20,273 bases of DNA from a virus: the IMG/VR virus record IMGVR_UViG_3300033074_002003, one strand, 5' to 3'. The notes below the pieces were generated by a model, which was given only the letters and a program-made list of their open reading frames with translations, was not told the origin of the DNA and did not search any database. Below are positions 1-11,195 of this stretch, piece after piece; within the stretch, counting starts at the first letter, position 1; every line of letters starts with the position of its first letter. The position numbers were made by a program, and so were the translations under genes.

Positions 1-41
1 TGTCTACTCGCCCAACGCCGGTTCGAATCCGGTCGTCATCG
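1..41 (+). tRNA. 3' portion of a tRNA gene truncated by the window start (T-arm and acceptor 3' strand only)
   Basis: GCCGG-TTCGAAT-CCGGT T-arm at 17-33, then a 7-nt acceptor 3' strand and discriminator. The 5' half lies outside the window. Confidence 0.5.
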
Positions 42-164
42 CAATCGAGCACCGAGAGGTGTGAGATCAGTTCCCCGCAAGGGAAACATTCGGGCCTGGT
101 GTATTGAGCAACACGCGTCCACTTTGGAGGACGAGAGCCACGAGCATAGCGTGGGGCCTGAGCC

Positions 165-236
165 GGGGAGGTAGTGTACGGGCGCACAGCGATCTATTGG
201 TGATCGACTGAGCTGGTTCAATTCCAGCCCTCCCCC
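165..236 (+). tRNA. tRNA-Gln(TTG)-like, 72 nt
   Basis: Acceptor GGGGAGG/CCTCCCC. T-arm GCTGG-TTCAATT-CCAGC. Anticodon stem CGATC/GATCG with loop TATTGGT, giving anticodon TTG. A33 is non-canonical and the D-loop is small. Confidence 0.5.
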
Positions 237-246
237 TGAATTATTT

Positions 247-318
247 GCACTGTTAGTGAAATGGGCATCACGTTTCTCTCTGAAAGAAAAATTGAAGGTT
301 CGAATCCTTCACAGTGTA
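247..318 (+). tRNA. tRNA-Gln(CTG), 72 nt, AT-rich
   Basis: Acceptor GCACTGT/ACAGTGT with one G-U pair. D-stem GTGA/TCAC. Anticodon stem TTTCT/AGAAA with loop CTCTGAA, giving CTG. T-arm GAAGG-TTCGAAT-CCTTC. The N-terminal extension of the track ORF 256..1080 overlaps this tRNA. Confidence 0.65.
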
Positions 319-360
319 CAATGTCTCGTTTCGAACCAATTATTCATCGTGACAACAATT

Positions 361-1080
361 TTGAAATGTGAATTGTGTGACGGTGATCACGAAGGGTTTT
401 ACGGGAGTGGAAGATTTTGCAGCAAAAAGTGTGCAAGGGCATTTTCAACACATAAATCGCGCAATGAAATCAACGAAAAAGTAAGTCAAACCCTTGTAGG
501 TAGAAGTCGTCGACTTCTACGTGCTGATGATAAACGCTTGCTGTTGAAAGTTGTCATTGATGAAAATCAGCTGCGCGAAGAAATCAAATTTGCTGTAAGC
601 TTTCGAAATCTAGCGCTAAGAATGAATTTGTCACTTAATCAAGTTCATAAAGTGAAAAAAACAGTTCAACGCTTGGGGCTTGATTATTCGCATTTTCGTT
701 TGGGACGAGCGCCTGAAAAAGTTCTTTGTCGCAGCAACAAACGAGGTGATTTGCGCGGAGCTCTCCTGAAATCAGAAAGAGAGTACAAGTGTGAAGAATG
801 TGGTCTCACGTCAAAATGGCAAGAAAAGAAGCTCACACTCCATGTCGATCACATTGACGGTGACAACGAGAATCACGAAGCGTCTAACTTAAGATTTCTT
901 TGTCCGAATTGTCATTCACAAACAGATACATTTTCGTGGAAGAACGTGCGACGCAAAAAGCTTCTTAAAAATGCGGGTTCGAGTCCCGCTCTCCCATCTG
1001 CCTGCTCGGCGCAGAGAGCTGTAGACACCTTGACAACAATGTGGTGTGACGTTCGAGAGAGATCGAAGACGGGGCTGTAA
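361..1080 (+). CDS. HNH homing endonuclease, probable TTG start; a paralog of the CDS at 9020..9622
   Basis: HNH motif HVDHIDGDNENHEASNLRFLCPNCH. The N-terminal KCELCDGDHEGFYGSGRFCSKKCARAFS matches MKCERCQVEHSGTYGSGRFCTVKCARSFS of the second copy, so the start is set at TTG 361, in frame with the listed ORF 256..1080. The gene is AT-rich in a GC-rich context. The C-terminal ~40 codons are GC-rich, read through a tRNA 3'-half remnant, and overlap tRNA-Ala, so the true C-terminus is uncertain. Confidence 0.6.
   Translation: MKCELCDGDHEGFYGSGRFCSKKCARAFSTHKSRNEINEKVSQTLVGRSRRLLRADDKRLLLKVVIDENQLREEIKFAVSFRNLALRMNLSLNQVHKVKKTVQRLGLDYSHFRLGRAPEKVLCRSNKRGDLRGALLKSEREYKCEECGLTSKWQEKKLTLHVDHIDGDNENHEASNLRFLCPNCHSQTDTFSWKNVRRKKLLKNAGSSPALPSACSAQRAVDTLTTMWCDVRERSKTGL
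937..997 (+). pseudogene. tRNA 3'-half remnant embedded in the 3' end of the HNH ORF (T-arm GCGGG-TTCGAGT-CCCGC plus acceptor strand)
   Basis: Perfect T-arm at 973-989 followed by TCTCCCA. The only upstream acceptor partner, TGGAAGA, is about 60 nt away, which is too short for a full tRNA, and no D or anticodon arm can be formed. Confidence 0.4.
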
Positions 1081-1143
1081 CTCAATTGGGAGAGTGCTAG
1101 CTTTGCAAGCTAGAAGTTGCCGGATCATCCCCGGTCAGCTCCA
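1071..1143 (+). tRNA. tRNA-Ala(TGC), 73 nt
   Basis: Acceptor GGGGCTG/CAGCTCC with the G3:U70 Ala identity pair. D-stem ACTC/GAGT. Anticodon stem CTAGC/GCTAG with loop TTTGCAA. T-stem GCCGG/CCGGT, but the T-loop ATCATCC is non-canonical. Confidence 0.55.
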
Positions 1144-1162
1144 CAAGGTCGTGATCGAGTTT

Positions 1163-1235
1163 CGGGATATAGTGCAACCTGGTAGCACACGAGTTTTGGG
1201 TACTTGAAATTTCGGTTCAAATCCGAATATCCCGA
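1163..1235 (+). tRNA. tRNA-Pro(TGG), 73 nt
   Basis: Acceptor CGGGATA/TATCCCG. D-stem GTGC/GCAC. Anticodon stem CGAGT/ACTTG with loop TTTGGGT. T-arm TTCGG-TTCAAAT-CCGAA. Confidence 0.7.
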
Positions 1236-1408
1236 CTAGTGAGAGAGAAGTGGCTGTCGATAAGCTTGGGCAGCACGGGACGAGCGACCGAGCCCTGATC
1301 AAGGCAGTGGGACTACTCTTCGCCGACGGGCGGGTCTAAGCCACCGAGCGCGGATCTATCGCGGTGTGCACTTGCGCACGCTCTCTCCAGTTTTAAGGAA
1401 ATGGGAAG

Positions 1409-1615
1409 ATGCCGACAAGTCCTGAAGACATTGGCGGGTTCGGTGGAGCGAAGGAGTCAAGGAAGAGGGTCGCAGACATCGACTTCATACAGAGGTGTCG
1501 AAGCTCCTCAGAAGAGGAACTTCTGAAGATGTTCTTCGCTCACTGTCGCAAGGGAGCTCCAGAGTGGAAAAGGGTCGCGATCAAGCGGGCGCTGGCCCGG
1601 ATCGCGAGGGAATAA
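1409..1615 (+). CDS. hypothetical protein (68 aa)
   Basis: ATG preceded by AAGGAAATGGGAAG. GC-rich codon third positions. No recognisable motif. Confidence 0.4.
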   Translation: MPTSPEDIGGFGGAKESRKRVADIDFIQRCRSSSEEELLKMFFAHCRKGAPEWKRVAIKRALARIARE

Positions 1616-1616
1616 T

Positions 1617-1689
1617 CAGCGTGTAAGTCAGAAGCTAGACAGCATCCCTCGGAAGGATGAAGACGGGGGTGCAAGTCCCTCCACGCTGA
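1617..1689 (+). tRNA. tRNA-Pro(CGG)-like, 73 nt
   Basis: Acceptor CAGCGTG/CACGCTG is perfect. Anticodon stem CATCC/GGATG with loop CTCGGAA, giving CGG. T-stem GGGGG/CCCTC with an unusual T-loop TGCAAGT. The D-stem is only 3 bp. Confidence 0.5.
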
Positions 1690-1753
1690 CTGAGAGTGGA
1701 TGTGTGAACATCCCGAGTGCTGTGCCGTACAATCACTCATAAGGAGAAATGTG

Positions 1754-2353
1754 ATGCAACTGAAGAGCTATTTCAGCCGTGTTCGTAGGCGCAGCGGTTG
1801 GCCCGATGGGTGTTCTTATCCCACAGCGAGGGCTGTTGTTGTCGCGAAGGACGTTCTCGCTGCGATCTCTGCCGGGAGGTTCAGGGTCGAGCAGGGTGCT
1901 TACGTAGACACAGACGTACCGGGTACTTCGGGTGACGGTGAGCCCCTGCGAGAGAACCTACGCCGCGCGGCTCTTCGCGCCCAGGACTACAGTCCGAAGG
2001 ATGAGTGCCGTGTCTGTGCGCTCGGCGCCTGCTTCATCGCAATGATCGATCGCGGCACGATTGTCAGAGACGATACGTGGTTCGACAATCGCTATGATCT
2101 CTACGAAGAGCTTCAGGACATCTTCACTCCAGAGGAGTTTGACCTCATCGAGGAGGCATTTGAGCTCGGCGGCGTGCACACCGACATCCACGACACGCTT
2201 CCCGCCCACCGCGCGAGGAACTTCGGTCGCCGTCGCAAGGACCCGGTGCAGAGGCTTGAGGCGATCATGCAGAACATCGTCGACAATCGCGGGGAGTTCA
2301 TTCCACCGACGAAGTACACGGACCCGCTCTCGAAGAGCTACCGTGGCGAATAG
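1754..2353 (+). CDS. hypothetical protein (200 aa)
   Basis: AAGGAG sits 7 nt upstream of ATG 1754. The listed ORF 1700..2353 would start inside tRNA-Pro, so the internal ATG is preferred. Followed by a strong hairpin terminator. Confidence 0.55.
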   Translation: MQLKSYFSRVRRRSGWPDGCSYPTARAVVVAKDVLAAISAGRFRVEQGAYVDTDVPGTSGDGEPLRENLRRAALRAQDYSPKDECRVCALGACFIAMIDRGTIVRDDTWFDNRYDLYEELQDIFTPEEFDLIEEAFELGGVHTDIHDTLPAHRARNFGRRRKDPVQRLEAIMQNIVDNRGEFIPPTKYTDPLSKSYRGE

Positions 2354-2361
2354 GTAAGATG

Positions 2362-2389
2362 TGTCGCGCTCTAGCGAGCGCGACAGTTT
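2362..2389 (+). terminator. rho-independent terminator-like hairpin (10-bp perfect GC-rich stem TGTCGCGCTC/GAGCGCGACA, loop TAGC, then GTTT)
   Basis: Seen directly in the sequence, 9 nt after the TAG stop of the 1754..2353 CDS. The T-tract is short, at 3 T. Confidence 0.45.
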
Positions 2390-2464
2390 GGGGATGTGGT
2401 CAAACGGCGAAGGCGTCTCCCTCAGAAGGAGAAGATTTTGTGGGTTCGAATCCCACCTTCCCCA
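2390..2464 (+). tRNA. atypical tRNA-like gene, anticodon CAG (Leu-type anticodon but short variable region), 75 nt
   Basis: T-arm GTGGG-TTCGAAT-CCCAC is perfect. Acceptor GGGGATG/CTTCCCC has one T:T mismatch. Discriminator A. Anticodon stem TCTCC/GGAGA with loop CTCAGAA. 3-bp D-stem with a 10-nt loop. The variable region is 7 nt. Confidence 0.4.
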
Positions 2465-2527
2465 CAGCGCACTGGGACCCGTAAAAAGCGAAAACAAGCG
2501 CAAAGAACGGGTTCCGGTGTGTCACAT

Positions 2528-2605
2528 GCGTCGGTGGACAAATTTCGGTAAAGTCGCTGCGTCGAGATCGCAGAGATTGTGTGGGTTCGAATCCCACCCG
2601 ACGCA
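2528..2605 (+). tRNA. atypical tRNA-like gene, anticodon GAG (Leu-type), 78 nt; a paralog of 2390..2464
   Basis: Same T-arm GTGGG-TTCGAAT-CCCAC and the same 7-nt variable AGATTGT. Acceptor GCGTCGG/CCGACGC is perfect. Discriminator A. Anticodon stem CTGCG/CGCAG with loop TCGAGAT, where C33 is non-canonical. 3-bp D-stem with a 13-nt loop. Confidence 0.4.
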
Positions 2606-2628
2606 CTAGTTACGAATGAGAGGGAACG

Positions 2629-2910
2629 ATGGCACCACAGGTACCCAACAAACAGGACGGAGAGGTCATCGCGTTCCTAGACGCCGCCCGGGCGAAGAAA
2701 GCCGCCCGCAAGTTCGAGGCGCTCGTGATGCCTTTTGTGAGGGGGTGGGACGAGCACTCTGAGCACCTCGAGCCCGGGTACCTCGCGGAGTTCATGAAGC
2801 CGGAGGACATGAGGGTGTTCGTACTTCTTCTCCGCGAATACAAGAGTGCCGCACAGCGACTCAGTGGGTTCCTCAAGGCACAGCGAACAAAGATTTCTGG
2901 GGGTCACTGA
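2629..2910 (+). CDS. hypothetical protein (93 aa)
   Basis: GAGAGGGAACG precedes the ATG. High GC3. Confidence 0.45.
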   Translation: MAPQVPNKQDGEVIAFLDAARAKKAARKFEALVMPFVRGWDEHSEHLEPGYLAEFMKPEDMRVFVLLLREYKSAAQRLSGFLKAQRTKISGGH

Positions 2911-2952
2911 GGGCACCCGGGATACAGACGCGGAGCGACTGAGTTCCGGGTC

Positions 2953-3689: not shown

Positions 3690-3759
3690 CGGTGCGTGGT
3701 TTGGTCGACCTAGGTGGCCTTATGAGCACTGAAGGCAGGTTCGATTCCTGCCGTACCGA
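3690..3759 (+). tRNA. degenerate tRNA-like element (good acceptor and T-arm, no canonical D or anticodon arms), 70 nt
   Basis: Acceptor CGGTGCG/CGTACCG and T-arm GCAGG-TTCGATT-CCTGC are good. The central 38 nt (TGGTTTGGTCGACCTAGGTGGCCTTATGAGCACTGAAG) holds two nested palindromes, GGTCGACC and CCTAGG, but no 5-bp stem with a 7-nt loop. Confidence 0.3.
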
Positions 3760-4394: not shown

Positions 4395-5048
4395 ATGGAC
4401 AACACGAAACGCTACATCTACTTCATTGTCAATCGCATAAACTCTAAACGATACGTTGGACAAACACGTGATTATGTAAAAAGATCTAAGCAACATTTTT
4501 CTGAGGGCAAGAAGGGTAGAAAACGACATCCACTCTACGATTCCATGTTTTCACACGGGATCGAAAATTTCGAATTTGTTGTGATACAAGAGTGTTGCGA
4601 AAATGACGTTGATGAGTGTGAGATAGCGTGGATTAAAGCATTGTGCACTCGTGATAGAAGATTTGGATACAATCTTACGCCGGGTGGTAGTGCAATGTCG
4701 AGTTGTGTCTATGAGAAAATTTCAAAATCAATGTCTGGTAGACATTTCACACCCGAACACAAGGCAAAAATAGCTCAAGCGTTGAGAGGACAAAAGAGAC
4801 CTCCTTTGAAAGTTGAGCACGTTGAAAAGATAAGAAAATTCAACTTAGAGTCGCCGCCCTTTGCGGGTAAAACTCATACTGTTGAAACGCGTGAGAAAAT
4901 ACGTTGCGCAAATTCCAAATTGACGCGTGAAATCGTGAAAGTGATTCGCGAAGAATTCAATAATGGAACATCTCGTAAAGAGCTTGCACAAAAATATCAG
5001 GTTTCGTATAGTGCAATCAAGAATATCGTTGCAGGTAGACGCTGGTGA
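4395..5048 (+). CDS. GIY-YIG homing endonuclease (I-TevI-like, with NUMOD-type repeats)
   Basis: N-terminal RYIYFIVNRINSKRYVGQT with the GIY-YIG signature, Arg (CTRDRRFGYN) and Glu. C-terminal repeated SGRHFTPEHKAKIAQA and GKTHTVETREKIR NUMOD3-like motifs and an HTH-like tail. AT-rich island directly after the tRNA array. Confidence 0.75.
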   Translation: MDNTKRYIYFIVNRINSKRYVGQTRDYVKRSKQHFSEGKKGRKRHPLYDSMFSHGIENFEFVVIQECCENDVDECEIAWIKALCTRDRRFGYNLTPGGSAMSSCVYEKISKSMSGRHFTPEHKAKIAQALRGQKRPPLKVEHVEKIRKFNLESPPFAGKTHTVETREKIRCANSKLTREIVKVIREEFNNGTSRKELAQKYQVSYSAIKNIVAGRRW

Positions 5049-8284: not shown

Positions 8285-8524
8285 ATGAACTGTTCGGTGG
8301 CGCTACGCAACACAATGGCAAACATCGCGCTCGATGCGTTCCCGTTCGCCACGGGCGCGTGGACAGACGGCGATCGCGTGGTCGTGTACGTTAGCGACGA
8401 CCACGACCTCACCGACCAGAGGTCAGGCGACGCGACGTTCAGGTTTCCGGAGTTCGACGGCGAGTCAGTGAGAGAAATTTCGAGGCCCGTCACCATCGAA
8501 TTCGTGAGACACTCGTTCACGTAG
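8285..8524 (+). CDS. hypothetical protein (79 aa)
   Basis: GAGAGGACACGACA precedes the ATG. High GC3. Confidence 0.45.
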   Translation: MNCSVALRNTMANIALDAFPFATGAWTDGDRVVVYVSDDHDLTDQRSGDATFRFPEFDGESVREISRPVTIEFVRHSFT

Positions 8525-8584
8525 CTTAATTGGTAAAGCACCGCATTTTGGCGGAGGCTGTGAGTTCGAATCTCATCGTGAACA
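8515..8584 (+). pseudogene. degenerate tRNA-like gene (70 nt) with a 4-bp anticodon stem and a 6-nt loop
   Basis: Acceptor GTTCACG/CGTGAAC is perfect. D-stem GCTT/AAGC. T-arm GTGAG-TTCGAAT-CTCAT. The anticodon arm is CCGC-ATTTTG-GCGG, which is 3 nt too short. Overlaps the stop of the 8285..8524 CDS. Confidence 0.35.
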
Positions 8585-8586
8585 CA

Positions 8587-9019: not shown

Positions 9020-9622
9020 ATGAAATGTGAACGCTGTCAAGTTGAACACAGTGGGACGTATGGTTCGGGAAGATTTTGCACAGTCAAGTGTGCGAGATCT
9101 TTTTCAACAGCGTCTACTTCTGAAAAACGTTCAGAGATCAACAAACGAGTATCAGCGACACTAACGCAACCGCCAAAAGTAGCGACCTGTTGCATGTGTA
9201 ACACGCGGTATGAAACGCGACATCAGCGTTCTACATGTTGTAGTAAAGAGTGTCGAAAAGCTCGTAAAGCTCAAGTACAACACAACGTAACTAGAGAACA
9301 AAGAATCGAATTGGGCATCAAGAGTTCCTTTGGCAAATATGTTCGAAATCCGACAAGTTTGTATGATTTGAGCAACCGAACAATCAGTAAGATTCTTACA
9401 AGACTCGGAATCGGGTGTTCTTTGTGTGGTTGGTCTGCTGGAAAGTGTGACATTCATCACATTCGTGGTCGGAAAATTGAAGAAGCAGACAGACACGAAA
9501 ATTTGGCCTACGTGTGTCCAAATTGTCACAGGCTGATTCACAACAAGAAAATCAAGATTGACAGTCTTGTATCACTTCAAGATCAGATTGGTGATCGCTG
9601 GAAAGAGCTCTATTACGGTTAA
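9020..9622 (+). CDS. HNH homing endonuclease, a paralog of 361..1080
   Basis: N-terminal MKCERCQVEHSGTYGSGRFCTVKCARSFS. HNH motif CDIHHIRGRKIEEADRHENLAYVCPNCHRLIHN. AT-rich. Confidence 0.75.
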   Translation: MKCERCQVEHSGTYGSGRFCTVKCARSFSTASTSEKRSEINKRVSATLTQPPKVATCCMCNTRYETRHQRSTCCSKECRKARKAQVQHNVTREQRIELGIKSSFGKYVRNPTSLYDLSNRTISKILTRLGIGCSLCGWSAGKCDIHHIRGRKIEEADRHENLAYVCPNCHRLIHNKKIKIDSLVSLQDQIGDRWKELYYG

Positions 9623-10020: not shown

Positions 10021-10506
10021 ATGTCGTCGCTTCGCACCTTCGTGCAGATTCTCGTCGAGAGGGTGGGTGCTCCGCTACCAGACGAGGCGATTAGTGCGAT
10101 CGTGGGGGAGTACGCAGAGTCGCCGAAGCACCCTGAGATGCGACTCACGTGGAAGTGGGGCTCTGTTCACAGCGGCAGGCGCGTTCCCGGGTGGGGAGCG
10201 TACGTTCCCGACGATTTCGCGATTGTGATGAAGAGGTCGAGGGGAGCGAGCCCAGAAGATTTTGTCCTGACGCTCCTGCACGAGCTCGAACACTACAACC
10301 AGCACGTGAGAATGGCAGATGAGCTCCCGCAGGGCGCGACGAGGCAGGAGATCGTCGACGCATGGACAGAGTCGTACGGCGGGGCACTGAACACCTCGTC
10401 CTACGATGATAATATGTACGAGGTCTCAGCAGAGGCATTTGCACAGTCAGAGTTGGAGAACGCTCTGCAGATCGCTGGGATCACCCCGTCGTGGCCGAAT
10501 GGATAG
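10021..10506 (+). CDS. putative zinc metallopeptidase (HExxH)
   Basis: LTLLHELEHYNQH HExxH motif. Start set at ATG 10021, after AAGAGAGCA. Confidence 0.4.
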   Translation: MSSLRTFVQILVERVGAPLPDEAISAIVGEYAESPKHPEMRLTWKWGSVHSGRRVPGWGAYVPDDFAIVMKRSRGASPEDFVLTLLHELEHYNQHVRMADELPQGATRQEIVDAWTESYGGALNTSSYDDNMYEVSAEAFAQSELENALQIAGITPSWPNG

Positions 10507-10510
10507 GCAC

Positions 10511-10559
10511 CTCCCTCCGAAGGAGACTCACGCAGGTTCGAATCCTGCCGAAGGGGCCA
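10511..10559 (+). pseudogene. tRNA 3' fragment: short hairpin CTCC-GAA-GGAG, T-arm GCAGG-TTCGAAT-CCTGC, acceptor strand, discriminator and encoded CCA
   Basis: The T-arm is identical to that of tRNA-Asn at 4268-4284. No acceptor 5' partner lies within 90 nt upstream. Confidence 0.4.
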
Positions 10560-10570
10560 TAGTTACAAAT

Positions 10571-10657
10571 GGGAATCTAGCTCAAAGTCCGCGTCAGCGG
10601 GGGCAGAGCGGTCCGTTAGTAAGCGGACAGGTCCCGGTTCGAGCCCGGGGATTTCCT
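10571..10657 (+). tRNA. atypical 87-nt tRNA-like gene (perfect acceptor and T-arm, 8-nt anticodon-type loop TTAGTAAG, hairpin inserted in the D region)
   Basis: Acceptor GGGAATC/GATTTCC. T-arm CCCGG-TTCGAGC-CCGGG. Stem GTCCG/CGGAC closes an 8-nt loop. The D region GCTC...GAGC encloses an extra 5-bp hairpin, TCCGC-GTCA-GCGGG. Confidence 0.35.
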
Positions 10658-10661
10658 CAGA

Positions 10662-11195
10662 TCACTTGTCGGTGCGTGGGATGGGAGGTTTTGCCGCGAC
10701 GGACGAGACTCTCTTTGTCTGTGTGCTGTCGTTCTTCGTGAGCGCCTTGTGAATCGCCGTCGGGCGAGGTGGCGGAGCGGTATCGCCCGTGTGGACCTCG
10801 CGGAGGCTCGGTATCGAGATCTTCTTTACGTTTGACTCGAGTGCAGCCTCGATTTCAGAGATTCGCCTCTGCACCTCGACGTACTTCGCGAGGAGCGCGT
10901 CGTAGTCCTCGCGCTGCGACGCGATCGTCGACATGAATGTCGTGTAGCCCGCCTGCGCATCTTTGATGTCGTTCAGCATGAAAGCGGCGTCCCGGCGCAG
11001 CTCGTTCAACTGAGCCTCCAGTGCCTGGTTTTCTTTCGTGGCCGTAAATCCGGTGACGATCTCTTCCTTTACGCGCCACAGCAGGTAGATCACGATCAGT
11101 CCGATAGCGAGCGCTCCCACCTTGATGCAGAGGTCTAGGAGGACTGGGTCGACGAAACGACCGAAATCGAACTGCGAGGCCGAGGACAAAAACAT
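10662..11195 (-). CDS. membrane-anchored coiled-coil protein (N-terminal transmembrane helix, type-II topology), the only minus-strand gene
   Basis: Hydrophobic LLDLCIKVGALAIGLIVIYLLW. Heptad-like ALEAQLNELRRDAAFMLNDIKDAQAGY. Pro-rich tail. Start set at the internal Met (ATG at 11195-11193 on the minus strand) because the listed start, 11285, would overlap tRNA-Ser(GCT) on the + strand. Confidence 0.45.
   Translation of the reverse strand: MFLSSASQFDFGRFVDPVLLDLCIKVGALAIGLIVIYLLWRVKEEIVTGFTATKENQALEAQLNELRRDAAFMLNDIKDAQAGYTTFMSTIASQREDYDALLAKYVEVQRRISEIEAALESNVKKISIPSLREVHTGDTAPPPRPTAIHKALTKNDSTQTKRVSSVAAKPPIPRTDK

What the first reader, a model, noticed from the sequence alone, without database searches (positions are those of the whole stretch)
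10507..10660. tRNA 3' fragment ending in encoded CCA directly abutting an aberrant 87-nt tRNA-like gene
10511-10559 reproduces the tRNA-Asn T-arm exactly and adds acceptor strand, G and CCA, but has no 5' half. Twelve nt later an 87-nt element follows, with perfect acceptor and T-arm, an 8-nt anticodon-type loop (UUAGUAAG, containing UAG) and an extra hairpin inside the D region. This resembles the partial-tRNA duplications left at integration or attachment sites. It also resembles tRNAs with expanded anticodon loops, which are frameshift-suppressor-like.
Basis: seen in the sequence. Interest (0 to 1): 0.5.

Follow-up and report, generated by a model that had tools for sequence, protein, structure and literature searches.

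The report
Intact tRNA-Arg plus conserved five-helix tRNA
The supposed tRNA fragment is simply the back half of a complete arginine tRNA, and the odd 87-base neighbour is a real, evolutionarily conserved tRNA-shaped gene of a group of giant phages that carries an extra hairpin in its D-loop and an abnormal anticodon loop, a shape not among the natural tRNA types in the reviews read here and missed by routine annotation.

Summary
The window is part of the tRNA array of an uncultured jumbo phage (contig up to 329 kb). The "3' fragment" (10511-10559) is the 3' half of a complete tRNA-Arg(CCG), 10485-10559 (Rfam 49.3 bits). Its 5' half was hidden under the end of an upstream ORF. There is no partial duplication and no attachment-site signature.

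The 87-nt element (10571-10657) is described correctly. It passes the Rfam tRNA threshold (38.1 vs 29 bits) only with relaxed filters. Syntenic homologues exist in four related phages whose sigma factors, where read, are 54-58% identical. Across the four intact copies 99% of base-pair cells are standard pairs. Fifteen of 25 pairs show compensatory double changes (0 of 500 shuffles), including 3 of 4 pairs of the extra D-loop hairpin. All tertiary-core nucleotides are canonical.

The 8-nt loop follows Y-U-N-G-N-A-R-G. It is identical (CUGGAAGG) in three phages despite different stems, and its ends can pair (Y:G in 5/5 members vs 2/93 ordinary tRNAs). G3:U70, the AlaRS determinant, is otherwise found here only in tRNA-Ala.

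Verdict: a functional non-canonical tRNA family, a new structural variant of a known kind. It is probably alanine-accepting and probably not a standard triplet decoder. Its role (mimic or decoy versus frameshift or missense decoder) is unresolved.

The parts
10485..10559 (+). Complete tRNA-Arg(CCG), 75 nt with encoded CCA. Has one G4.A69 mismatch in the acceptor stem.
   Evidence: ARAGORN and fold; Rfam RF00005 49.3 bits, model 1-71; complete orthologues in L021 7758-7831 and L023 845-919
10560..10570 (+). 11-nt spacer between the two tRNA genes
10571..10657 (+). 87-nt non-canonical tRNA ('D-loop-hairpin tRNA'), five helices; discriminator U at 10657, followed by CAG (no encoded CCA)
   Evidence: Rfam tRNA 38.1 bits vs gathering 29; MFE cloverleaf -40.1 kcal/mol, z -3.3; homologues and covariation
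10571..10577 (+). Acceptor stem 5' strand GGGAATC, pairing with 10650-10656 GATTTCC; pair 3:70 is G.U
10580..10609 (+). D-arm: stem GCTC (10580-10583) / GAGC (10606-10609) enclosing a 22-nt loop that keeps A14, A15, G18 G19 and A21
10589..10600 (+). Extra hairpin inside the D-loop: CCGC-GTCA-GCGG
   Evidence: 3 of its 4 pairs show compensatory double changes among four phages; predicted de novo by RNAalifold
10611..10628 (+). 'Anticodon' arm: 5-bp stem GTCCG/CGGAC with 8-nt loop TTAGTAAG (10616-10623). Energy models close it further to 7 bp plus tetraloop AGTA.
10633..10649 (+). T-arm CCCGG-TTCGAGC-CCGGG with a canonical T-loop
10021..10506 (+). Upstream ORF (161 aa, HExxH motif, weak DUF6782 metallopeptidase match) whose last 22 nt overlap the 5' half of tRNA-Arg; context only
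   Evidence: called as a 161-aa gene on contig L030
10662..11195 (-). Convergent 177-aa membrane / coiled-coil gene ending 4 nt after the element. Conserved next to the element in L022, L025 and L033, and also present in L021, which lacks the element; context only.

Best explanation
Two adjacent genes of a jumbo-phage tRNA array. The first (10485-10559) is an ordinary, complete tRNA-Arg(CCG). The second (10571-10657) is a functional member of a previously unannotated family of structurally expanded tRNAs found in a clade of related jumbo phages. Shown: it keeps the whole canonical tRNA core (7-bp acceptor, 4-bp D-stem, 5-bp anticodon stem, 5-bp T-stem, U8, A14, A15:U48, G18 G19, A21, G26.A44, T-loop UUCGA). 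It adds a hairpin in the alpha region of the D-loop and an 8-nt loop Y-U-N-G-N-A-R-G. All five helices are maintained by compensatory substitutions. Inferred: it is transcribed with the array and matured like its neighbours by RNase P, 3' trimming and CCA addition. It folds into an L-shape with the extra hairpin projecting near the elbow. In this phage it is charged by AlaRS through G3:U70, which does not read the anticodon. My committed guess for its role: it is not a standard triplet decoder. Its loop ends pair (Y:G), giving a longer stem with a 4-6-nt loop. I therefore think it acts as a tRNA mimic: a competitor or decoy for a tRNA-binding host factor such as an anticodon-directed defence nuclease, or an Ala-tRNA donor kept off the ribosome. 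About 0.9 that it is a selected, functional tRNA-type RNA. About 0.4 for the mimic / non-decoding role specifically. The overall confidence given (0.6) is for the statement as a whole.
For: tRNA-Arg. Element is tRNA-like: Rfam 38.1 bits, full model. The cloverleaf is recovered by MFE in every member and de novo by RNAalifold. Syntenic homologues: L022 7941-8027, L025 1887-1973, L033 5302-5387 and L023 923-1013, in phages with sigma factors 54-58% identical where read. Covariation: 99% of cells paired, 15/25 pairs with double changes, 0/500 shuffles, slid controls 33-51% paired. The element is 100% identical in 9 contigs of the same phage from several samples. The loop CUGGAAGG is identical in L022, L025 and L033 over three different stems. 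Loop ends are Y:G in 5/5 members against 2/93 ordinary tRNAs of the same phages at 32:38. G3:U70 occurs only in tRNA-Ala, this element and other abnormal-loop tRNAs. Its 3' end (C after the discriminator, no CCA) is like most tRNAs of the array, and L033's copy encodes CCA. Precedent for phage tRNAs countering tRNA-targeting defences: PMC10264068, PMC11555353.
Against: There is no expression, processing or charging data. Only four intact homologues plus one degenerate copy (L023) are known. G3:U70 is not universal (L025 has G3-C70, L033 has G4:U69), and the window copy has U73, not the A73 that AlaRS prefers. The two loop-closing pairs vary on one side only, so pairing is not proven. The constant 5-bp stem, the U at the U33 position and a purine at the 37 position fit a decoder equally well. 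Relatives L021 and L026 lack the element, so it is dispensable. No defence nuclease or binding partner is identified.
Confidence: 0.6

Rival explanations
1. Non-standard decoder. The element is an aminoacylated tRNA that works on the ribosome with its expanded loop. It would act either as a +1 / quadruplet reader (anticodon AGUA for UACU here; GGAA for UUCC in relatives) or as a triplet reader with the anticodon displaced in an 8-nt loop, as in yeast mitochondrial tRNA-Thr1. Two registers are possible: loop positions 4-6 G-N-A (UAY here, UUY in relatives) or positions 3-5 N-G-N (ACU here, UCC in relatives). With G3:U70 it would insert alanine.
For: The 8-nt loop has invariant U at the U33 position and A/R at the 37 position. 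A constant 5-bp stem is kept by covariation. The loop sequence is strictly conserved in three phages. The tRNA core is fully canonical. An 8-nt loop that decodes triplets, with the anticodon at loop positions 4-6, is documented (PMC3113583). No canonical Tyr or Phe tRNA was found in the array stretches read. L029, a cellular gene with the same D-loop-hairpin layout, has a normal 7-nt GUA loop, suggesting that the hairpin is compatible with decoding.
Against: The loop ends are C-G or U.G in all members, which is very rare at 32:38 in ordinary tRNAs (2/93), and both energy methods close the loop. The putative anticodon differs between orthologues (GUA / GAA / GCA) without matching identity elements; for example the window copy has U73, unsuitable for bacterial TyrRS by established identity rules. 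No frameshift sites were sought or seen. The ligase and sigma genes read through normally in the standard code.
Confidence: 0.3
2. Decaying pseudogene or spacer: a tRNA gene damaged by insertions, no longer functional.
For: ARAGORN cannot assign an anticodon. The element is missed by Rfam with default filters. The L023 copy has a shortened anticodon stem and a bulged acceptor. The array holds other degenerate tRNA-like pieces, such as 3690-3759 at 25.5 bits.
Against: Four copies only 56-68% identical (three-way comparison) keep 99% of pairs, with 15 compensatory pairs, including in the inserted hairpin. The loop sequence is conserved over changing stems. All tertiary nucleotides are kept.
Confidence: 0.04
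3. Integration / attachment-site remnant: a partial tRNA duplication left by a mobile element.
For: The T-arm is shared exactly with tRNA-Asn. Homing endonucleases are abundant and polymorphic in the array.
Against: The 'fragment' is part of a complete tRNA-Arg. Only the generic T-arm recurs. No integrase domain was found in the neighbouring ORFs scanned. The gene pair is conserved in L023.
Confidence: 0.02
4. Class II-type tRNA as folded by ARAGORN: anticodon arm at the first hairpin (anticodon 'agcg'), with the second hairpin as a long variable arm.
For: ARAGORN output for the window and L022.
Against: That fold needs a 3-bp D-stem with a 3-nt loop and an anticodon stem with mismatches. The covariation-supported GCTC/GAGC helix encloses the first hairpin. 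The length of the first hairpin varies from 4 to 8 bp between members.
Confidence: 0.02

Closest known systems
Canonical bacterial / phage elongator tRNA (Rfam RF00005)
   Same: 7/5 acceptor/T branch, 4-bp D-stem, 5-bp anticodon stem, canonical T-loop and all tertiary-core nucleotides; location inside a phage tRNA array; 3' end like its neighbours.
   Different: 22-nt D-loop holding a covarying hairpin (normal D-loops are 7-11 nt). 8-nt anticodon loop with pairable ends. 4-nt variable loop. Not detected by routine scans.
Yeast mitochondrial tRNA-Thr1(UAG) with an 8-nt anticodon loop (PMC3113583)
   Same: A natural tRNA with an 8-nt loop that is conserved across species; the anticodon sits at loop positions 4-6 after an extra 5' base.
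   Different: That tRNA has a normal D-arm, a known synthetase (MST1) and proven triplet decoding. Its loop ends (U...U) cannot pair.
+1 frameshift-suppressor tRNAs such as sufD and sufB2 (own knowledge; mentioned in PMC3113583 and PMC9094753)
   Same: One extra base in the anticodon loop.
   Different: Those are mutant derivatives of identifiable isoacceptors with an otherwise normal cloverleaf. Here no progenitor isoacceptor stands out (53-68% identity to all) and there is an added D-loop hairpin.
tRNA-Sec and allo-tRNAs (PMC7609411, PMC5389517)
   Same: Natural tRNAs with non-canonical cloverleafs, some found in phage tRNA clusters. The enlarged D-arm of tRNA-Sec serves as a protein recognition handle (SelA, PSTK).
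   Different: tRNA-Sec lengthens the D-stem to 6 bp with a 4-nt loop and has 8/5 or 9/4 branches and a long variable arm. Here the D-stem stays 4 bp, G18 G19 are kept, and a separate hairpin is inserted.
Phage tRNAs that counter tRNA-targeting defences (PMC10264068, PMC11555353)
   Same: Phage-encoded tRNAs whose anticodon-loop sequence departs from the host's. This offers a rationale for unusual loops in large phage tRNA arrays.
   Different: Those are normal 7-nt-loop decoders with point substitutions. No case with changed loop size or an added hairpin came up in the text of PMC10264068.
tmRNA tRNA-like domain
   Same: G3:U70 alanine identity combined with absence of a working anticodon.
   Different: tmRNA lacks an anticodon arm and carries pseudoknots and a tag ORF. 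There is no Rfam tmRNA match here.

Membership tests
tRNA (Rfam RF00005) | Score at or above the curated gathering threshold over the full model | tested here: met
   38.1 bits vs 29, model 1-71, but only when 361 nt are searched with lax filters. Missed at window or locus scale.
tRNA (Rfam RF00005) | Cloverleaf helices 7/4/5/5 supported by covariation | tested here: met
   99% of cells paired; 15/25 pairs compensatory
tRNA (Rfam RF00005) | D-loop of 7-11 nt and anticodon loop of 7 nt | tested here: not met
   D-loop is 22 nt with an internal 4-bp hairpin; anticodon loop is 8 nt
tRNA (Rfam RF00005) | Aminoacylation and ribosomal decoding | not testable with these tools
   Needs charging assays and reporters
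Alanine-accepting tRNAs (AlaRS substrates) | G3:U70 wobble pair in the acceptor stem | tested here: met
   Present in the window copy, L022 and L023. Absent in L025; shifted to 4:69 in L033. Otherwise found only in tRNA-Ala and other abnormal-loop tRNAs of these phages.
Alanine-accepting tRNAs (AlaRS substrates) | Discriminator A73 | tested here: not met
   U73 in the window copy; A73 in L022, L025, L033 and L023
+1 frameshift-suppressor / quadruplet-decoding tRNA | 8-nt anticodon loop that stays open | tested here: inconclusive
   8 nt between the 5-bp stem strands, but the ends are Y:G in 5/5 members and are closed by MFE and RNAalifold
+1 frameshift-suppressor / quadruplet-decoding tRNA | Cognate quadruplet or frameshift sites in phage genes | not tested
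   Only about 30 kb of a ~329-kb genome was available. The genes examined read through normally.
Attachment-site partial tRNA duplication | A truncated copy of the 3' part of a tRNA, separate from the intact gene, flanking an integrated element with an integrase | tested here: not met
   The 'fragment' is inside a complete tRNA-Arg. No repeat beyond the T-arm. No integrase domain in the neighbouring ORFs scanned.
tmRNA / Y-RNA (YrlA) tRNA-like domains | Match to the curated covariance models | tested here: not met
   Only RF00005 matched at E<=10 in 10400-10760, apart from two weak plastid cis-regulatory hits far below threshold
Class II tRNA (long variable arm) | Extra arm located between the anticodon stem and the T-stem | tested here: not met
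   The extra hairpin lies inside the D-loop, enclosed by the covarying GCUC/GAGC helix; the variable loop is 4 nt

The most novel reading that the evidence does not exclude
A clade of jumbo phages encodes alanine-accepting tRNAs (G3:U70) whose anticodon arm has been freed from alanine codons. They would be used on the ribosome for programmed recoding: alanine insertion at UAY / UUY or ACU / UCC codons, or +1 reading of UACU / UUCC. The conserved D-loop hairpin would serve as a handle for a phage protein that controls when this tRNA is used. That would be a natural, virus-encoded equivalent of engineered tRNA-Ala-based suppressors.
Probability: 0.15. Interest if true: 0.85.

Novelty: new variant of a known kind. 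Interest (0 to 1): 0.6.

Why it matters
All natural non-canonical bacterial and phage tRNAs in the reviews I could read change the acceptor/T branch, the D-stem length or the variable arm (PMC7609411, PMC5389517). A covarying hairpin inserted into the D-loop, combined with a conserved non-7-nt anticodon loop, is not among them. It is invisible to ARAGORN's identity assignment and to Rfam at normal filter settings, so such genes are probably under-counted in phage genomes.

If it is a mimic or decoy, it adds an RNA-based layer to the phage-host conflict over tRNAs. If it decodes, it is a natural example of expanded-loop decoding by an anticodon-blind identity. Either way it is a compact, testable object: 87 nt, with four natural variants. 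It also shows that the tRNA elbow region tolerates a sizeable insertion, which is of interest for tRNA engineering.

The first half of the finding is ordinary and should be dropped.

Tried and rejected
**Searches that found nothing useful**
- Close relatives in GenBank phages: megablast, tblastn with the flanking ORF, and blastn with the element gave nothing, or only generic T-arm hits. Ligase and sigma hits are 30-44% identical at most.
- IMG/VR: an exact pattern, two degenerate patterns and three protein queries gave no member.

**Dead ends**
- Near-identical JGI contigs L001-L008 and L030-L032 are the same phage and carry no covariation information.
- MAFFT misaligned the variable-length hairpins. 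I replaced it with a covariance-model-guided alignment and a manual parse.
- Two contig look-ups failed on frame or start choice.

**Ideas rejected**
- ARAGORN's class II-like fold is rejected: mismatches, and it is contradicted by covariation.
- L026 3550-3636 as a family member is rejected: it has a different architecture, with a 6-bp D-stem and a short extra arm.
- L024 and L029 score no better with the family model than ordinary tRNAs (about 41 bits vs 40-43). I keep them only as architecturally similar, with homology unproven.
- A progenitor isoacceptor: the hairpin-deleted core is 53-68% identical to all tRNAs of the phage, with no clear parent.
- Stop-codon recoding suggested by 'UAG' in the loop: UAG is not in anticodon orientation, and conserved genes are uninterrupted in code 11.
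- A promoter or terminator specific to the element: none found.

Full report
**Context.** The window is phage-like DNA. ARAGORN tRNA genes, all on the + strand. They are interspersed with low-GC HNH and GIY-YIG homing endonucleases and followed by a sigma-70-type factor and an ATP-dependent DNA ligase. The same sequence (at least 99.9% identical over most of its length) occurs on contigs from several JGI metagenomes and one ENA assembly. The sigma-factor cluster is recorded on a contig of 329 kb, so this is an uncultured jumbo phage. Nothing close exists in 50,697 GenBank phage records. The host is unknown.

**The 'fragment'.** ARAGORN calls a complete tRNA-Arg(CCG) at 10485-10559 and Rfam RF00005 scores it 49.3 bits over the whole model. 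The 17-nt T-arm identity with tRNA-Asn is real. It is the only part of 10485-10660 that recurs in the window, and similar T-arms occur in many of the tRNAs. Complete tRNA-Arg(CCG) genes sit at the same place in relatives L021 and L023. No integrase domain was found in the neighbouring ORFs scanned. The attachment-site idea is therefore rejected.

**The 87-nt element.** In tRNA numbering it reads:
- acceptor GGGAAUC / GAUUUCC, with G3:U70
- U8 A9
- D-stem GCUC / GAGC, enclosing AAAGU-[CCGC GUCA GCGG]-GGGCA
- G26
- stem GUCCG / CGGAC with loop UUAGUAAG
- variable loop AGGU
- T-arm CCCGG-UUCGAGC-CCGGG
- discriminator U

Rfam's tRNA model gives 38.1 bits (threshold 29), but only when a short stretch is searched. 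The extra bases are 19 nt in place of 4 in the D-loop and 4 in place of 3 in the anticodon loop. The MFE fold is this cloverleaf (-40.1 kcal/mol, better than 200/200 shuffles). ARAGORN instead forces a class II-like fold with mismatches, which I reject. The absence of an encoded CCA is normal here: 22 of the 23 Rfam-defined tRNAs of the window have C after the discriminator, and only three encode CCA directly after it.

**Relatives.** The neighbouring 228-aa protein has four homologues at about 50% identity, and a sigma-factor profile gave a graded series. Their contigs show the same gene order: YAcAr-domain gene, tRNAs, a convergent membrane-protein gene, a tRNA-Ser cluster, the 228-aa homologue, sigma and ligase. 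Clear homologues of the element lie at the syntenic spot in four of them:
- L022 7941-8027
- L025 1887-1973
- L033 5302-5387
- L023 923-1013, which directly follows tRNA-Arg(CCG) as in the window

L021 and L026 lack it, even with the covariance model's filters off. So it is present in 5 of the 7 lineages whose syntenic region could be read. Two degenerate-pattern scans of large collections returned two further genes with the same layout. L024 is an AT-rich metagenome contig. L029 is a contig binned as Ca. Saccharibacteria, next to an HtpX-like ORF, with a promoter-like TTGACG-17-TATAAT and a terminator-like hairpin plus T-run read from the sequence. These two score no better with the family model than ordinary tRNAs. 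I count them only as architecturally similar.

**Selection on structure.** The window, L022 and L025 copies are 56-68% identical. On the four-member alignment that adds L033:
- 99% of 100 pair cells are standard pairs.
- 15 of 25 pairs have changes on both sides (0 of 500 shuffles reach this).
- Sliding the 3' partners by 1-3 columns drops pairing to 33-51%, with 0-3 double changes.
- Every helix covaries, including the inserted hairpin: CCGC/GCGG, CCUA/UAGG, CUCU/AGAG and CUCC/GGAG, 3 of 4 pairs.

RNAalifold predicts the same five helices without being given a structure. The hairpin length varies between members: 4 bp in four members, 6 bp in L023, and 5-8 bp in the outliers. Its flanks, AA(A/G/U)GU and (G/C)GG(C/U)A, are conserved. 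So it is an expansion segment between position 17 and G18 that leaves A14, A15, G18 G19 and A21 in place. This excludes spacer and pseudogene readings for the intact copies. L023's copy, with a 2-nt shorter anticodon stem and a bulged acceptor, may be degenerating.

**The anticodon arm.** The 5-bp stem covaries (4 of 5 pairs). The loop is CUGGAAGG in L022, L025 and L033, UUAGUAAG in the window and CUCGCAAG in L023, giving Y-U-N-G-N-A-R-G. The identical loop over three different stems shows selection on the loop itself. Two anticodon registers fit:
- Positions 4-6 G-N-A (GUA here, GAA in the relatives), as in the 8-nt loop of yeast mitochondrial tRNA-Thr1, which decodes triplets (PMC3113583).
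- Positions 3-5 N-G-N (AGU here, GGA in the relatives), with the extra base on the 3' side.

Against an open loop: its first and last bases are C-G or U.G in all five phage members. Among 93 ordinary tRNAs of the same phages only 2 have C-G or U.G at 32:38. Both MFE and RNAalifold extend the stem to 7 bp with a tetraloop. The two extra pairs change on one side only, so pairing is plausible but unproven.

**Identity.** G3:U70 is the established major AlaRS determinant, and AlaRS does not read the anticodon (established knowledge; review PMC9976931 is in the library). G3:U70 occurs in the window only in tRNA-Ala(UGC) and this element. Among 45 tRNAs of the relatives it occurs only in two tRNA-Ala genes and two other abnormal-loop tRNAs, and L026's odd 87-nt tRNA-like has it too. 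Within the family it is present in the window, L022 and L023. It is shifted to 4:69 in L033 and absent in L025. The discriminator is A in all members but the window (U). Alanine identity is therefore likely for this copy but is not a family constant. An anticodon-blind synthetase would explain how the loop could diverge between orthologues.

**Function.** What is shown is a selected, tRNA-shaped RNA gene. What is inferred is processing, charging and role. I lean (about 0.4) to a non-decoding tRNA mimic. It would act as a decoy or competitor for a tRNA-binding factor, in the setting of phage-host conflicts over tRNAs (PMC10264068, PMC11555353), or as an Ala-tRNA kept away from normal decoding. 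The reasons are the closed loop ends and the recurrence of other 6-nt-loop tRNA-like genes in these phages. A non-standard decoder (about 0.3) remains a serious rival. The array stretches read contain no canonical Tyr or Phe tRNA, but only about 30 kb of the genome was visible.

**Comparison with the known.** The reviews and surveys I could read list tRNA-Sec, tRNA-Pyl, 8/4 and 9/3 allo-tRNAs, armless mitochondrial tRNAs and engineered variable-arm hairpin fusions. None lists a natural D-loop hairpin (PMC7609411, PMC5389517, PMC7590224). CPR tRNA-Tyr with C1-G72 is known, but no D-arm insert was mentioned (PMC5370408). I therefore rate this a new structural variant of a known kind. The caveat is that the literature library is incomplete.

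**Limits.** There are few homologues, no transcript data, an unknown host, and only partial genomes.

Noticed in passing
window 8515-8585: A strong tRNA (Rfam 60.1 bits) whose anticodon arm is CCGC/GCGG with a 6-nt loop AUUUUG (Lys-UUU-like, one base short). ARAGORN gives 'tRNA-??? (tt)'. tRNA-Lys is a known target of anticodon nucleases, so an altered Lys-like loop may be meaningful.
   Followed up: partly
window 90-164; L033 3404-3477: Two tRNA-like genes in different phages share the same 8-nt loop ACUUUGGA (Gln-UUG-like). The window copy has a non-canonical T-loop and does not reach the Rfam gathering score at window scale; the L033 copy scores 39.8 bits.
   Followed up: partly
L021 4052-4120; L022 2398-2469; L026 3550-3636: Other abnormal tRNAs in related phages, close to tRNA-Ala genes, all with G3:U70 and A73. 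L021's has a 6-nt loop AUUUAG. L026's is 87 nt with a 6-bp D-stem, a 6-nt loop AUAAAA and a short extra arm. Together with the studied family this suggests a wider set of alanine-identity tRNAs with non-standard anticodon arms in this phage clade.
   Followed up: partly
window 3690-3759: Sub-threshold tRNA-like sequence (RF00005 25.5 bits vs 29) between tRNA-Thr and tRNA-Gly. It has a good acceptor and T-arm but a degenerate D region; probably a decaying tRNA.
   Followed up: partly
window 256-1080, 4395-5048, 9020-9622: Low-GC HNH and GIY-YIG homing-endonuclease genes are scattered in the tRNA array. The HNH gene at 9020-9622 is absent from otherwise near-identical contigs (L002, L003, L006, L030, L031), so it is a presence/absence polymorphism.
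   Followed up: partly
window 1-2929: This stretch is only 95-97% identical to the other contigs of the same phage, while the rest is at least 99.6% identical: a locally divergent or recombined segment at the start of the array.
   Followed up: no
window 10021-10506 and 10485-10559: An HExxH metallopeptidase-like ORF (weak DUF6782 match) ends 22 nt inside tRNA-Arg(CCG). That tRNA has a G4.A69 mismatch in its acceptor stem.
   Followed up: partly
L022 1385-1504: A 120-nt sequence matching the full tRNA model (52 bits) with an insertion of about 50 nt in the anticodon loop; possibly an intron-containing or disrupted tRNA.
   Followed up: no
L031 6230-6302 (same phage, about 0.3 kb upstream of the window start): A 73-nt tRNA with anticodon GCU (Ser AGY) but no long variable arm, and C at position 33. 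It cannot be a standard class II tRNA-Ser.
   Followed up: no
L033 1-32: The start of the contig matches the 3' end of the tmRNA model (34 bits, cut off at the contig end), suggesting that a relative of this phage encodes a tmRNA.
   Followed up: no
L029 424-519: In a contig binned as Ca. Saccharibacteria, next to an HtpX-like ORF, lies a stand-alone tRNA gene with C1-G72, A73 and a normal 7-nt loop with anticodon GUA, but a 22-nt hairpin insertion in the D-loop. ARAGORN misses it. It may be an archaeal-type CPR tRNA-Tyr with an undescribed D-loop expansion.
   Followed up: partly
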